Shown piece by piece: positions 11,691 through 16,265 of a DNA stretch of 64,000 bases. The stretch comes from the human T2T-CHM13v2.0 reference genome, Homo sapiens, in assembly GCF_009914755.1 (NCBI RefSeq), contig NC_060943.1. The stretch is one strand, 5' to 3'. Within the stretch, counting starts at the first letter, position 1. The number at the start of each line of letters is the position of its first letter. Under the pieces are notes generated by a model that saw only the letters and a list, made by a program, of their open reading frames with translations, did no database searches and was not told the DNA's origin. The translations under genes were made by a program, and so were the position numbers.

Positions 11691-11719
11691 ATGGCCCAGC
11701 AGAGGGGAAGCGCAGCTCA
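11691..11719 (+). CDS. OR7E24: Upstream coding mini-exon of OR7E24 (MAQQRGSAA+CA)
   Basis: GTCATGG Kozak context, 29 nt to donor CA|GTGAGT (11720). Phase 2 matches acceptor AG|G at 15286/15287. An extra in-frame ATG lies at 11685. Confidence 0.7.
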
Positions 11720-13872
11720 GTGAGTGCTGAGGGACGGTTGGGAGCCTTGTTTCCTCATCCTCAGCACAAACAGGACAGTGGGGTGGCAGATGGGAGGACA
11801 CCAATGTGCAAAATGTCAGCTCAGACGACTGTGGAGTTTATGTTCGGGGTTTATTTTCAGGGTTTATGTTCAGGGTTGTGTGTGTGGTCTTTCATTTCAT
11901 ATTGCTGCACTATTTTACATTTCCATACTCCCTTACAAGCATTCCTACTTCTCTATGGTTTCACCAAAACTTGACAGGTTGTTTTGTTCATTTGCTCTTA
12001 ATAGCCATCCTATTGGGTGGTATCTCATTGTGTTTTTTATTTGCATGTCCCTGCCAATGAGTGATGTTGAATATCACTTTGTATGCTCATTGGCTGTTTG
12101 TATATGTTCTTTAGAGAAATGATTATTGAAGTCCTCTGCCCACTTTTAATGGGGTATTTGTTTTGTTGTTGAGTTGTAGGAGTTCTTGGTGTAGTTTCTT
12201 TGTTAGCCTCTTAGCATATAGATGATTTGCAAATATATTTTCCTATTCCCTGGGTTAACTTTTGACTCTGATGAAATTTTACATTCCTCCCATGCTGATT
12301 GAACTTCCCATAGACATCTCACCCAGGATAGCAAAAAGTGGGTCCCTCTAAACTGTGCCCTAAACACAACAAAAAGTTTATAAAGGTGATGTTGAGGATG
12401 AGGAGGAAGATGCCAGTCACCATGACATCATGAATTCTTACTGAGGGCTTCCTAAATGCATGGATCTCAGCTCTGTGTTTTGTATAGCTTGTTTCATTTC
12501 ATCTTCATAATTTTTCCTGAGTTATAGCTGCACACATTATTATTATTATTGTACAGAGGAGGAAAGGAGCAATGCATTTTTATATAGCTCGTACCAGATC
12601 ATGAGGTAGAAAGAGGTGAAGCCACATTTGCACCAGGCAGTCTAAGTCCAGACACATAGCATTTGGCCAGGCCTCTCTCTGCATCCAACCTTCCCCCCCT
12701 CGAATCCGTGTCACACCCAGCAGGTGCCCCTGCTAACTGTACCCTTCCCTTTGGGGCTTCCTGGTAGACCACAGCTAGACCAGTGGGTGCCACGTTCACT
12801 GTGTCAAGTATAGAAAGGGCAGCTGAGATCACATCAAAGATCCCAGAAAGAACTGGCACAGGATCACTCAGGGCGCATCTCTCCCTTGCCCCTGTTTCTG
12901 GCTTTCCTTGCAGCTCTCTACTTCCTCAAAGGAGAAATAAAATCAGGGTCTTGGAATCCATTTCTATTCAGGAAACCGGAAATAGTTTCAAAATGCGCTT
13001 CAGATGCACCTGTGCTTAAGACCTCTGGCCATTGCTTAAAACTTTCTGAGAGCTGGGAAACAATGAAGAAGTTTAGTGCCAGAGACTCAAAGACCAACCA
13101 TTTAATTCCAAATCCTGCCCATGCCCCTGATCTGTGTGACAAGGGGTGAGATGTCTGTGTCTCTGAGGCTCAACACTATCATCTGAGTTGATTTCTGGTA
13201 GATCCCACTGCAGTGAGCAATGATTAAACAGACCGTGTGTGCTCCTGTGTGATCCCTATGTGATGGATGCATAAAGTGAAGTGTATTCTACATGTTTTCT
13301 ATTAATATTCCAAGGTTAATCTCCATACCATTGAACTGAAATATCCAGGAACCTAGCTATGGTTCCCAATGTCTCTGACAGGACATTTAATTTTTGCCCT
13401 TATATAAGTAAGTACTGAGGATTGTGAGAGGAATATTTGAGTTTCTTTCAACTCTGATTTCCCAGAGCCTGTATCTTGCTTGGTACAGAGGAGACACCAA
13501 AAATTAGAATCTCTGTTACATATTGAATAGACCCTTCCTTAGTTCACAAAACTGGCTGTGATCAGTGTGACTTCAACACACTCACTGCTTTCCTATCTGT
13601 ACTTTCATTCCTTCCAGGAATGTGTCACAAACTAGGCAGAAGGTAAAATAGCACTTTTTTGTGTCTATATTATGGACACATAATAATAGCATCTACAACA
13701 TTCAATTACTTAAAGACCATGGCAGAGATTTTTACAGGCATAAAAAAAGAGAAAAGGATGCAGAAGGAAGTGGGGGCAGGTAAACCTTATTGTTTAGATC
13801 AAGATACATTTTAGAGTTTCACATGATTCCAGCCACAACGAAAGTAATGCCAAAGTATTTTAACATTACCTT

Positions 13873-14176
13873 GGCCAGGCACAGTGGCTCACACCTGTAA
13901 TCCCAGCACTTTGAAAGGCAGAGGTGGGCAGATTACTTGAGGTCAGAAGTTTGAGACCAGCCTGGCCAACATGGTGAAACTCCATCTCTACTAAAAATAC
14001 AAAAATCAGCTGTGCATGGTGGGGCGTGCGCCTGTAGTCCCAGCTACTCGGGAAGCTGAGGCATAAGAATCGCTTGAACCCAGGAGGCGGAGGCTGCAGT
14101 GAGCTGAGATCATGCCACTGCATTCCAGCCTGGTGACAGGCTCAAAACTTCGAGACTCAGGTCTTAAAAAAAAAAA
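13873..14176 (+). mobile_element. Alu
   Basis: Alu consensus. Confidence 0.95.
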
Positions 14177-14299
14177 TTAAAAGCATTTTAACATTATATT
14201 AATGTTCTGTCATCCACAGGTACGTTGCACACTATCAACATCTTTGCTATCAGTGATGTCCTGGTAATTATGTGCATTTAACTAAACCTTCCTTTTAAT

Positions 14300-14596
14300 T
14301 ACTTATTGATTTAATAGTCAAGGTCTCACTCTGCCACTCTGCCTAGAGTGCGGTGGTATGATCATGGTTCAGTGCAGCCTCGAACTCCAGGGCTCAAGCG
14401 ATTCTCCTGACTCAGCCTCCTGAGTAGCTGGGACTACAGGGCGGCGCCACCATGCCTGTCTAATTTTTTAGTTTTTTGTAAAGATGGGGTTTTGCTGTGT
14501 TTTCCAGGCCGGTCTTAAACTCACATCCTCAAGCAATCCTCCTGCCTTGGCCTCCCAAAGTGCTAGGATTCCAGGTGTGAGCCACCACCCTGGGCT
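14300..14596 (-). mobile_element. Alu (AluJ)
   Basis: Reverse AluJ-like. Confidence 0.9.
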
Positions 14597-15245
14597 ACTT
14601 TCTTATCAAAACTCCAAGTCCACCTAAGGCAAGGACAGGAATTATAATTAAGTGAATTTTAAAAGAAAGCCCACATATTTGAGTGAGTACTTACTTCCAT
14701 GAAGAATGAAAGTCAGAAAACGTAAGAATGATGGAAACCGTAGAATATAACTGGTATGTAAAGATGTTTTCTGGCTATGAACTATGAACTTTCATTGAGT
14801 TTTGAGACAACATGATCCTAGATCTCATTGAGTGTTGATAAATATCCTCAATCAATGGAATTTGTAGAATTGTATTAGAATAAAACAAGACATAGCTGAC
14901 TCCTTCTTAGTATCCTTTCAATGGATTTAATCTTTTTCTTAAAGGGGCAAGAATATTTTTGTTGTATATTTTTTCCTGATAAATTAGGCTATATTTTACC
15001 GTGATCATGGATTTCTAAAATCTCTAATGTTTTTGCTCTCCTAACATTCTTCAATAGACTGTCTCTAAGTTAAGTGTATACAGAAAGAGGTGAATAACAC
15101 AAAATCAATTATGAAGTAACTCTAAGGAAATTGGGTTTGTCACAACTGAGAACTATTGCTGAGGGTGTATAATCCTATGTGAAAACTTAATTTCTTAATT
15201 GCTTGTATCCAAAATATAGACACAGTGCTAGATGCTGGTTTACTT

Positions 15246-16265
15246 ATGTCCTATTTTCCAATTCTCTTTTTTTTTTTCCTCAAAAGGTGTCCGAGCTACA
15301 CAGAGCCACAGAATCTCACAGGTGTCTCAGAATTCCTCCTCCTGGGACTCTCAGAGGATCCAGAACTGCAGCCGGTCCTCGCTGGGCTGTTCCTGTCCAT
15401 GTACCTGGTCACGGTGCTGGGGAACCTGCTCATCATCCTGGCTGTCAGCTCTGACTCCCACCTCCACACCCCCATGTACTTCTTCCTCTCCAACCTGTCC
15501 TTGGCTGACATCGGTTTCACCTCCACCACGGTCCCCAAGATGATTGTGGACATGCAAACTCACAGCAGAGTCATCTCCTATGAAGGCTGCCTGACTCAGA
15601 TGTCTTTTTTTGTCCTTTTTGCATGTATGGATGACATGCTCCTGAGTGTGATGGCCTATGACCGGTTTGTGGCCATCTGTCACCCCCTGCACTACCGAAT
15701 CATCATGAACCCACGCCTCTGTGGCTTCTTAATCTTGTTGTCTTTTTTTATTAGTCTTTTGGACTCCCAGTTGCACAATTTGATTATGTTACAGCTCACC
15801 TGCTTCAAGGATGTGGACATTTCTAATTTCTTCTGTGACCCTTCTCAACTCCTCCACCTTAGGTGTTCCGACACCTTCATCAATGAAATGGTCATATATT
15901 TCATGGGTGCCATATTTGGCTGTCTCCCTATCTCAGGGATCCTTTTCTCTTACTATAAAATTGTTTCCCCCATTCTGAGAGTTCCAACATCAGATGGGAA
16001 GTATAAAGCCTTCTCCACCTGTGGCTCTCACCTGGCAGTTGTTTGCTTATTTTATGGAACAGGGCTTGTAGGGTACCTCAGTTCAGCTGTGTTACCATCC
16101 CCCAGGAAGAGTATGGTGGCTTCAGTGATGTACACTGTGGTCACCCCCATGCTGAACCCCTTCATCTACAGCCTGAGGAACAAGGACATTCAAAGTGCCC
16201 TGTGCAGGCTGCATGGCAGAATCATCAAATCTCATCATCTCCATCCTTTTTGTTATATGGGATAG
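15246..16265 (+). CDS. OR7E24: Olfactory receptor 7E24: 339-aa single-exon ORF; main exon starts at 15287 in the 335-aa split model
   Basis: Uninterrupted 7TM ORF with NLT glycosylation site, [36 protein letters not shown] and [12 protein letters not shown]; the N-terminus [22 protein letters not shown] matches my memory of OR7E24. Confidence 0.93.

What the first reader, a model, noticed from the sequence alone, without database searches (positions are those of the whole stretch)
11691..16265. OR7E24 appears to be a split-exon olfactory receptor whose start codon sits in a mini-exon 3.6 kb upstream
Seen in sequence: where OR genes normally start (M-E-P-Q-N-L-T), OR7E24 reads ACA GAG CCA CAG AAT, with no ATG. 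The single-exon start (15246) lies in what looks like an intron end: T11 tract, then CTCAAAAG|GTGTCC. At 11691, GTCATGGCC (good Kozak) runs 29 nt to CA|GTGAGT. Joining CA+G gives [21 protein letters not shown]..., a 335-aa in-frame receptor that keeps the NLT glycosylation site. The inverted paralog keeps the identical 29 nt, the donor (32944) and the acceptor (30533) in the same phase, while the nearby ATG at 11685 is GTG there. Established: OR CDSs are classically intronless, though a minority of split ORs have been described, so this case may already be curated. Inference: this is the real N-terminus, and ATG-less OR7E copies elsewhere should be re-scored with this exon.
Basis: partly seen in the sequence, partly recalled or inferred. 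Interest (0 to 1): 0.85.

Follow-up and report, generated by a model that had tools for sequence, protein, structure and literature searches.

The report
OR7E24 split start exon, already curated
The smell-receptor gene OR7E24 can take its start codon from a tiny exon 3.6 kb upstream, a layout that RefSeq already lists and that related genes in many mammals share, so it is real but not new.

Summary

The split CDS is not new. RefSeq NM_001386108.1 has exactly this CDS (11691-11719 + 15287-16265). The 'select' transcript is still the single-exon NM_001079935.2.

New evidence favours the split form as the ancestral, conserved one.
- 6 of 7 annotated OR7E24 transcripts use acceptor 15287.
- 53 exon-1 homologues exist genome-wide, and 49 keep the ATG.
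- All 30 aligned copies keep the GT donor and the 29-nt length.
- 0 of 21 OR7E copies has an ATG at the classical start.
- The single-exon ATG (15246) and the T11 tract occur only in OR7E24.
- 23 of 120 related protein clusters begin with the homologous ten-residue peptide. They come from primates, bats, donkey, bear, camel and rodents.

Human paralogue conservation shows ancestry, not selection. No RNA reads could be checked.

The proposal to re-score other OR7E copies found nothing. Of 60 loci scored, only OR7E102P is unbroken, and it has no exon-1 copy nearby.

Side consequence: the T11 'coding microsatellite' is probably an intronic polypyrimidine tract.

The parts
11546..11719 (+). Exon 1 of RefSeq NM_001386108.1 (145-nt 5'UTR plus 29 coding nt)
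   Evidence: Annotation table. Not masked as a repeat. Homologues found at 53 places in the genome.
11691..11719 (+). Mini coding part: ATG plus 26 nt, ending with 2 nt (CA) of a split codon. Encodes MAQQRGSAA and the first two bases of Q.
   Evidence: ATG kept in 28 of 30 aligned human copies, and the length is 29 nt in 30 of 30. ATG kept in 49 of 53 pattern hits.
11720..15286 (+). Intron of 3567 nt. Donor GTGAGT at 11720-11725, acceptor AG at 15285-15286.
   Evidence: GT kept in 30 of 30 copies. AG at the aligned place in 20 of 21 OR7E acceptor regions.
15267..15277 (+). T11 tract. It is the polypyrimidine tract of the acceptor, and reads FFFF in the single-exon CDS.
   Evidence: A run this long is seen only in OR7E24 among 21 OR7E copies.
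15246..15248 (+). ATG of the single-exon CDS (NM_001079935.2, marked 'select')
   Evidence: At the aligned place it is present in 1 of 21 OR7E copies, OR7E24 only. OR7E19P has an ATG 2 nt away that is out of frame (frame counted by hand).
15287..16265 (+). Coding part of exon 2, stop included: the receptor body
   Evidence: Pfam 7tm_4 E=1.8e-48.
15300..15302 (+). ACA at the place of the classical OR start codon
   Evidence: No ATG at this column in 0 of 21 OR7E copies.
11596..11598 (+). First ATG of the spliced mRNA. Weak context, out of frame, opens a 126-codon reading frame that overlaps the main start.
   Evidence: Kept in 26 of 30 copies.
11685..11687 (+). In-frame ATG 6 nt upstream of 11691. 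It would give 337 aa.
   Evidence: It is GTG in 26 of 30 copies.
14224..14263 (+). Alternative first exon of the Gnomon model XM_054320516.1, spliced to 15287. Its ATG at 14256 is in frame.
   Evidence: Lies between two masked repeats.
32945..32973 (-). Identical 29-nt copy of the mini coding part upstream of the pseudogene OR7E19P. Donor G at 32944.
30532..30532 (-). First base of the OR7E19P exon-2 homologue, in the same phase. The spliced reading stays open for about 120 codons, then breaks.
11450..11850 (+). Island of very high identity between the three chr19 exon-1 copies (promoter side, exon 1, start of the intron)

Best explanation
OR7E24 is a split olfactory-receptor gene.

Transcription starts near 11546. 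A 174-nt first exon carries the start codon (11691, or the human-specific 11685) and ten codons. A 3567-nt intron is removed, and the reading frame continues at 15287 into the receptor body.

The classical OR start codon, five codons into exon 2, is gone (ACA) in all 21 human OR7E copies examined. The upstream exon therefore supplies the initiator.

This layout is older than the human OR7E expansion and is shared by 7E-type receptors across boreoeutherian mammals.

The single-exon start at 15246 is an ATG found only in OR7E24. It lies in the last 41 nt of the intron, and its 'FFFFLKR' is the polypyrimidine tract and acceptor read as protein. It is probably a minor product (intron retention or an internal start) or an annotation legacy.

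Shown: the sequence features, the curated annotation, the ancestry in paralogues, and the homologous N-termini in other mammals' protein models.
Inferred: that the spliced mRNA is the main one and that its ATG is the one translated.
For: -: NM_001386108.1 (BestRefSeq) has this exact CDS. 6 of 7 annotated OR7E24 transcripts use acceptor 15287.
- 335 aa, in frame.
- exon-1 homologues at 53 genomic places (control pattern 0). ATG kept in 49 of 53. In 30 aligned copies GT is kept in 30 of 30 and the 29-nt length in 30 of 30.
- 29 of the 53 lie within 12 kb upstream of the 3' end of a same-strand OR7E gene.
- 0 of 21 OR7E copies has ATG at the classical start. AG is kept in 20 of 21. The 15246 ATG and the T11 run occur only in OR7E24.
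- of the 120 best protein clusters, 23 (sorted by hand) begin with a peptide homologous to MAQQRGSAAQ directly before the conserved Cys. They come from Theropithecus, Cebus, Macaca, Eptesicus, Myotis, Glossophaga, Artibeus, Phyllostomus, Equus, Ursus, Camelus, Sciurus, Urocitellus, Marmota, Callospermophilus, Fukomys and Ictidomys.
- Met sits exactly ten residues before the junction in 20 of 23 (18 by script, 2 more by eye). Identity to the human ten residues is 3-10 of 10.
- models that read through the intron end have their Met at varying distances.
- the closest clusters, gelada (92% identity, 335 aa, 100 member sequences) and Cebus, are split models and group with OR7E24 (SH-aLRT 98).
Against: - No RNA-seq, CAGE, Ribo-seq or peptide data could be examined, so junction usage is known only through RefSeq models.
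- The transcript marked 'select' is the single-exon one.
- Exon 1 has an earlier out-of-frame ATG (11596) that opens a 126-codon overlapping frame. This should lower initiation at 11691.
- In-frame upstream ATGs also occur in 2 other alternative 5' exons (3 of 6 spliced models in all), so an in-frame ATG alone is weak evidence.
- Within human paralogues the mini-ORF is no better conserved than the 5'UTR (96.9% against 95.4% identity to consensus). This shows ancestry, not selection.
- The other-species proteins are automated predictions that may have been guided by the human RefSeq protein. About 26 of the 120 clusters are instead modelled as intron read-through.
- Canonical-start 7E-like proteins are nested inside the clade at 3-5 places, so the history of the internal Met is not a single clean loss.
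Confidence: 0.75

Rival explanations
1. Two genuine isoforms. A distal promoter (exon 1) gives the 335-aa form and a proximal start near 15132 gives the unspliced 339-aa form. Both are made and differ only in the extracellular tip. This is the second class of split OR genes in Barnes et al. 2020.
For: RefSeq keeps both as NM records and marks the single-exon one 'select'. [quoted passage not shown]
Against: The 15246 ATG is absent from the other 20 human OR7E copies. The T11 run is OR7E24-specific. The closest primate clusters are modelled as split. The 14 extra residues are a translated polypyrimidine tract and acceptor. No evidence for a start site at 15132 could be examined.
Confidence: 0.2
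2. Neither start matters. OR7E24 is a decaying member of an 83-locus family of which 82 are annotated as pseudogenes. It is transcribed mainly outside the nose, and little or no receptor is made.
For: The classical ATG is lost. An out-of-frame upstream ATG precedes the start. 82 of the 83 annotated OR7E loci are pseudogenes. OR7E24 was picked up as spermatid-specific (PMC7436996, passage seen). OR7E pseudogenes are widely transcribed in non-olfactory tissues (PMC3566163, passages seen).
Against: The 325-codon body is uninterrupted, with a full 7tm_4 match. By contrast, 58 of 60 scored OR7E loci carry stops or are fragmented. Gelada and Cebus keep intact split models at 92% and 90% identity. 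dN/dS could not be computed because no primate DNA was available.
Confidence: 0.1
3. The split form is right, but human translation starts at 11685, giving 337 aa (MVMAQQ...), because that is the first in-frame ATG.
For:: ATG 11685 is in frame, 6 nt upstream, with G at +4.
Against: Its -3 base is T, while 11691 has G at -3 and G at +4. It is GTG in 26 of 30 human copies. No split-type model in other species shows the two extra residues. RefSeq chose 11691.
Confidence: 0.3

Closest known systems
Split olfactory receptor genes (Barnes et al. 2020, BMC Genomics 21:196, PMC7055050; abstract and section 7 read)
   Same: The coding sequence is split over two exons and the intron falls in the extracellular N-terminal region. 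The intron size (3567 nt) is close to their human mean of 3841 nt. The initiator Met and junction are conserved in other mammals. A single-exon ORF and a split ORF coexist, as in their second class.
   Different: The main text does not name OR7E24 ('OR7E' and 'OR7' occur 0 times). The list of the 13 human genes is in Supplementary File 3, which was closed, so I cannot say whether OR7E24 is one of them. The paper states that all human split loci were phylogenetically independent events. Here the split layout travels with a whole expanded subfamily, although only one member is intact.
Ordinary OR genes with short non-coding 5' exons spliced just upstream of the ATG (Olender et al. 2016, PMC4982115; passages seen)
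   Same: The architecture is the same: a short 5' exon, an intron of a few kb, and an acceptor a few codons before the classical start.
   Different: In OR7E24 the classical ATG is lost, and the upstream exon carries an in-frame ATG, so the 'non-coding' exon becomes coding.
OR transcripts that 'skip the initiating methionine' (Olender et al. 2016; passage seen)
   Same: Relative to the single-exon annotation, the spliced OR7E24 transcripts skip the annotated Met at 15246.
   Different: That paper read such cases as a form of pseudogenisation. Here the skipped Met is the derived one and the spliced form restores a conserved start. Whether OR7E24 is among their 10 genes is in a figure or supplement that I could not see.
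OR7E pseudogene family in segmental duplications (Newman and Trask 2003, recalled and not read; Flegel et al. [quoted passage not shown]
   Same: OR7E24 belongs to this family. The exon-1 module is part of many of the duplicated units (29 of 83 annotated loci).
   Different: OR7E24 alone combines exon 1, the acceptor and an unbroken body.

Membership tests
Olfactory receptor (Pfam 7tm_4, PF13853) | Profile match above the curated cut-off | tested here: met
   E=1.8e-48, 166 bits against a cut-off of 27, covering residues 36-308 of the exon-2 product.
Olfactory receptor (Pfam 7tm_4, PF13853) | Hallmark motifs in TM3/IC2, IC3 and TM7 (motif names recalled) | tested here: met
   The translation shows [23 protein letters not shown] and [12 protein letters not shown].
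Split OR gene in the sense of Barnes et al. 2020 | Full-length ORF that spans two exons | tested here: met
   29 + 979 nt, 335 aa, no stop. RefSeq NM_001386108.1 has the same CDS.
Split OR gene in the sense of Barnes et al. 2020 | Initiator Met and splice junction conserved in orthologues, or in closest paralogues | tested here: met
   Paralogues. Other mammals, protein models only: 23 of 120 clusters, with Met at -10 in 20 of 23. Donor and acceptor DNA of other species was not available.
Split OR gene in the sense of Barnes et al. 2020 | RNA-seq support for the junction | not testable with these tools
   Reads were off for this job. The only indirect evidence is that 6 of 7 RefSeq/Gnomon models use acceptor 15287.
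Split OR gene in the sense of Barnes et al. 2020 | Listed among the 13 human split OR genes | not testable with these tools
   The list is in Supplementary File 3, which was closed. The main text has no 'OR7E'.
OR7E subfamily | Closest human relatives are OR7E loci | tested here: met
   after itself, the best 27 matches are OR7E loci at 71-76% identity (maps them to annotated OR7E genes). OR7D/7G/7A/7C loci follow at no more than 66%.

The most novel reading that the evidence does not exclude
The reference ('select', 339-aa) N-terminus of OR7E24 is the 3' end of an intron read as protein. If so, the T11 run is not a coding microsatellite but the polypyrimidine tract of the acceptor. That run is scored as a frameshift site in germline calls (rs201985790, CT>C, 'F/X'), listed as a recurrent frameshift target in microsatellite-unstable tumours, and used to design frameshift neoantigen peptides. 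One-base length changes there would leave the conserved 335-aa reading frame intact. In addition, the exon-1 module, kept 92-100% identical among the three chr19 copies, may be a homogenised or selected promoter unit that explains the broad transcription of OR7E pseudogenes.
Probability: 0.55. Interest if true: 0.35.

Novelty: already known. Interest (0 to 1): 0.2.

Why it matters
For olfaction the point is modest. It adds one more well-supported case to the known minority of split OR genes. It also shows that the human OR7E copies examined descend from a gene whose classical start codon was already lost and whose initiator lay in the upstream exon.

The practical consequence concerns annotation. 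Variant callers and tumour studies use the single-exon CDS and therefore treat the T11 run as coding. This is seen in PMC5467167 (passage), in bioRxiv 10.1101/662262 (passages, wild-type peptide taken from the 339-aa N-terminus) and in a table in PMC5739789. If the spliced form is the main mRNA, those 'frameshifts' are intronic length changes, and predicted frameshift peptides from OR7E24 would not be made from it.

Heterologous expression studies of OR7E24 should use the 335-aa form as well.

Tried and rejected
A six-frame search with the exon-2 product scored 60 of the 83 annotated OR7E loci. Only OR7E24 and OR7E102P had no stop; the other 23 loci were not among the scored matches.
- Of the 28 other loci with an exon-1 homologue upstream, 18 were scored and all were broken. 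Of the 10 unscored, the 4 that I held as DNA are frameshifted or have stops. The remaining 6 (OR7E35P, 59P, 126P, 43P, 12P, 158P) were not examined.
- In the 19 chr2/chr3 loci with a match, 18 are broken. L031 (OR7E91P) gave no match because the fetched stretch was cut at 10 kb.
- OR7E102P is open over 325 codons. It has no ATG at the classical place or in the intron end, no exon-1 24-mer hit nearer than 71.0 or 135.4 Mb on chr2, and an Arg in place of the Gly of the TM1 GN motif.
- Coding constraint in human paralogues: rejected as evidence. The mini-ORF is 96.9% identical to consensus and the 5'UTR 95.4%.
- OR promoter motifs upstream of 11546. One O/E-like site at two mismatches or fewer against 0.84 expected by shuffling, and one TAATGA. 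Not informative; the consensus motifs were recalled.
- The bacterial promoter/terminator scan was irrelevant and found nothing.
- Single origin of the ATG-less state. The tree used 59 rows: 23 split-type, 23 read-through, 12 canonical-start and the window. I left out the other 62 of the 120 clusters: fusions over 390 aa, other OR7 subfamilies and fragments. Canonical-start rows need 5 changes, at least 3 of them forced by well-supported branches, so one clean loss is not supported. The labels are also gene-model choices.
- Literature. Searching 'OR7E24' gave 30 papers, none on its gene structure. A search for 'OR7E' with 'upstream exon' and 'start codon' found nothing relevant. 'PTE01' found nothing. 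A search for '7E olfactory receptor' with 'segmental duplications' gave only citing papers. PMC6544539 and PMC6625139 were looked at and not used.
- I found no printed statement that OR7E24 is split, in searches. The closed supplements of PMC7055050 and PMC4982115 may hold it.
- No splice-site scoring program was available, so the site descriptions rest on recalled consensus.
- My notebook entry 1 wrongly says '7 of 8 transcripts'; the count is 6 of 7. It also says '8 of 19' loci with exon 1 within 7 kb; the count is 7 of 19.
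Full report
**What is in the sequence**

- An ATG at 11691 sits in a GTCATGG context and is followed by 26 more nt up to 11719. GTGAGT follows at 11720.
- Upstream of the receptor body, a T11 run (15267-15277) and CCTCAAAAG end at 15286, and exon sequence starts at 15287.
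- The place where OR genes normally start reads ACA GAG CCA CAG AAT CTC ACA, from 15300.
- Joining 11691-11719 to 15287-16265 gives a 1008-nt, 335-codon open frame that keeps the NLT sequon. The single-exon frame from 15246 gives 339 aa.
- The intron is 3567 nt.
- The inverted paralogue upstream of OR7E19P has the same 29 nt (32973-32945, minus strand), a donor at 32944, an acceptor in the same phase (exon 2 from 30532), and GTG where OR7E24 has the ATG at 11685.

**It is already annotated**

The transcript table for chr19 lists seven OR7E24 mRNAs.
- NM_001386108.1 (BestRefSeq) has exons 11546-11719 and 15287-16827 and CDS 11691-11719 + 15287-16265.
- The transcript marked 'select' is the unspliced NM_001079935.2 (15132-16827, CDS 15246-16265).
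- The five Gnomon models all use acceptor 15287, so 6 of 7 transcripts splice there.
- Three of the six spliced models have an in-frame upstream ATG: this exon, the exon 14224-14263, and a far-upstream pair of exons. The other three start at an internal Met at 15399. An in-frame ATG in an upstream exon is therefore not rare and needs conservation to count as evidence.

**Literature**

- Barnes et al. [quoted passage not shown] Their mean human intron was 3841 nt. One class has both a single-exon ORF and a split ORF.
- OR7E24 is not named in that main text. The list is in a supplement that was closed.
- Olender et al. 2016 (PMC4982115; passages) reported 10 OR genes with transcripts that skip the annotated initiator Met and read this as pseudogenisation. 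The gene names are not in the text I could see.
- I found no printed statement on the OR7E24 structure.

**Ancestry within the human genome**

- The 401-nt region around exon 1 has at least 40 scored matches out of 87 candidates.
- A 24-nt pattern over the ATG, allowing three mismatches, hits 56 places against 0 for the control. I take 53 of these as homologues; three isolated three-mismatch hits were dropped. 49 of the 53 keep the ATG.
- 29 of the 53 lie within 12 kb upstream of the 3' end of a same-strand annotated OR7E locus. That is 29 of the 83 loci.
- In an alignment of 30 copies, the ATG at 11691 is kept in 28, the GT donor in 30, and the 29-nt length in 30. The ATG at 11685 is GTG in 26, and the upstream out-of-frame ATG (11596) is kept in 26.
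- In 21 acceptor regions (OR7E24, OR7E19P and 19 chr2/chr3 loci), none has ATG at the classical start. The AG is at the aligned place in 20. The ATG at 15246 and the long T run are found only in OR7E24.
- The common ancestor of these human OR7E copies therefore already lacked the classical start and already had exon 1, its ATG and the phase.
- This is ancestry, not selection. In the 27 dispersed copies the mini-ORF is 96.9% identical to their consensus and the 5'UTR 95.4%.
- The identical 29 nt in OR7E19P are also uninformative, because the whole island from about 11450 to 11850 is 92-100% identical between the chr19 copies.

**Other mammals**

- A search with the exon-2 product (7467 hits, best 120 listed) gave protein clusters whose N-termini I sorted by hand.
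- 23 of the 120 begin with a peptide homologous to the human ten residues, placed directly before the conserved Cys that opens exon 2. Examples are gelada and one macaque cluster (identical), Cebus (9 of 10), another macaque paralogue (7 of 10), Eptesicus and Myotis (7), donkey (6), marmots (5) and mole-rat (3).
- Squirrel, bear, camel and Glossophaga carry a further in-frame extension.
- Met lies exactly ten residues before the junction in 20 of 23 (18 by script; two phyllostomid bats were mis-anchored by my pattern and read by eye).
- About 26 of the 120 clusters are instead modelled as read-through of the intron end. In every one the residues before the Cys are a Phe/Leu-rich stretch ending in a basic pair, which is the translated polypyrimidine tract and acceptor. 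Their Met lies at differing distances.
- The closest clusters to OR7E24, gelada (92% identity, 335 aa, 100 member sequences) and Cebus (90%), are split models and group with it (SH-aLRT 98).
- Twelve 7E-like clusters start at a canonical Met. On the tree they sit at 3-5 separate places inside the clade, and one Myotis split model has a Met at that inner place too. The inner start was therefore kept, lost or regained more than once.
- Caveat: these are automated predictions, some perhaps guided by the human protein. I had no DNA of other species.

**What it most likely is**

OR genes usually have short 5' exons spliced a few codons before the ATG (established knowledge; Olender 2016 passages). 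In the 7E line the inner ATG was lost, and an in-frame ATG of the upstream exon serves as the start.

The human single-exon start looks like a late, local event. The ATG is unique to OR7E24 and lies 41 nt before the acceptor. Its frame is kept open by a pyrimidine run that cannot hold stop codons.

I rate the split form as a genuine and ancestral coding form at about 0.85, and as the main human product at about 0.6.

Against it:
- no read-level data were available;
- the 'select' status belongs to the single-exon form;
- an out-of-frame ATG at 11596 opens a 126-codon overlapping frame;
- an in-frame ATG at 11685 could give 337 aa.

Re-scoring the other OR7E copies with this exon gives nothing.
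- Of 60 loci scored in six frames, only OR7E24 and OR7E102P lack stops.
- 18 of the 19 fetched chr2/chr3 loci are broken.
- OR7E102P is open over 325 codons but has no start of any kind, no exon-1 copy nearby, and an Arg in the TM1 GN motif.
- 23 loci were not scored, and six of those that have an exon-1 copy were not examined.

**Consequence noticed**

- The T11 run is treated as coding in practice.
- A table in PMC5739789 lists rs201985790 (CT>C) as an OR7E24 frameshift.
- PMC5467167 names OR7E24 among frameshift targets enriched in one microsatellite-unstable tumour type.
- bioRxiv 10.1101/662262 designed peptides from the 339-aa N-terminus.
- If the spliced mRNA is the main one, these are length changes in an intronic polypyrimidine tract.

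**Verdict**

The added value here is fourfold: the family-wide and cross-mammal ancestry, the evidence that the 'select' N-terminus is the derived one, the negative result for other OR7E copies, and the annotation consequence for the T11 run.

Noticed in passing
window 11450-11850; window 32813-33220 (minus); L003 (chr19:9324438-9324838): A sharply bounded ~400-nt island (promoter side, exon 1, first ~130 nt of the intron) is 92-100% identical per 50-nt bin among the three chr19 copies. Flanks are 60-75% identical and the OR7E24/OR7E19P coding exons about 80%. In the acceptor region the two genes fall into different OR7E subgroups. This points to gene conversion or selection on the island; it is unresolved.
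   Followed up: partly
L022-L030 (e.g. L022 about 1784-2796): 9 of 30 exon-1 copies carry an insertion of about 1 kb, 7-8 nt after the donor GT, flanked by a short duplicated target. The start of the insert looks LTR-like, but that resemblance is only recalled. It marks one subfamily of OR7E duplicons.
   Followed up: no
L034 (chr2:96053194-96054147, OR7E102P): This is the only annotated OR7E pseudogene among 60 scored with an uninterrupted receptor frame (325 codons aligned, 75% identity). It has no start codon at the classical place or in the intron end, and no exon-1 homologue nearby. Arg replaces Gly in the TM1 GN motif.
   Followed up: partly
window 11596-11598 and 11685-11687: The spliced mRNA's first ATG (11596; weak context; kept in 26 of 30 copies) opens a 126-codon out-of-frame reading frame that overlaps the main start. 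A second, in-frame ATG at 11685 is present in only 4 of 30 copies.
   Followed up: partly
window 15267-15277: The T11 run is counted as a coding microsatellite in tumour and exome papers (rs201985790; lists of frameshift targets in microsatellite-unstable tumours; frameshift peptide design). It lies in the intron of 6 of 7 annotated transcripts.
   Followed up: partly
genome-wide: 24 of 53 exon-1 homologues have no annotated same-strand OR7E locus within 12 kb downstream, and 54 of 83 OR7E loci have no exon-1 homologue upstream. In several duplicons an exon-1-less OR7E lies about 5 kb upstream of an exon-1-bearing one (e.g. chr3:128.43 Mb).
   Followed up: partly
upstream of the window (about -29315 to -5201 in window coordinates): Four Gnomon OR7E24 models start 22-29 kb before the window and run across OR7D4 (opposite strand) before splicing to 15287. 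One of them also gains an in-frame upstream ATG.
   Followed up: no
window 14224-14263: An alternative first exon (Gnomon only), wedged between two masked repeats (13866-14142 and 14315-14505), supplies yet another in-frame ATG and gives 328 aa.
   Followed up: no
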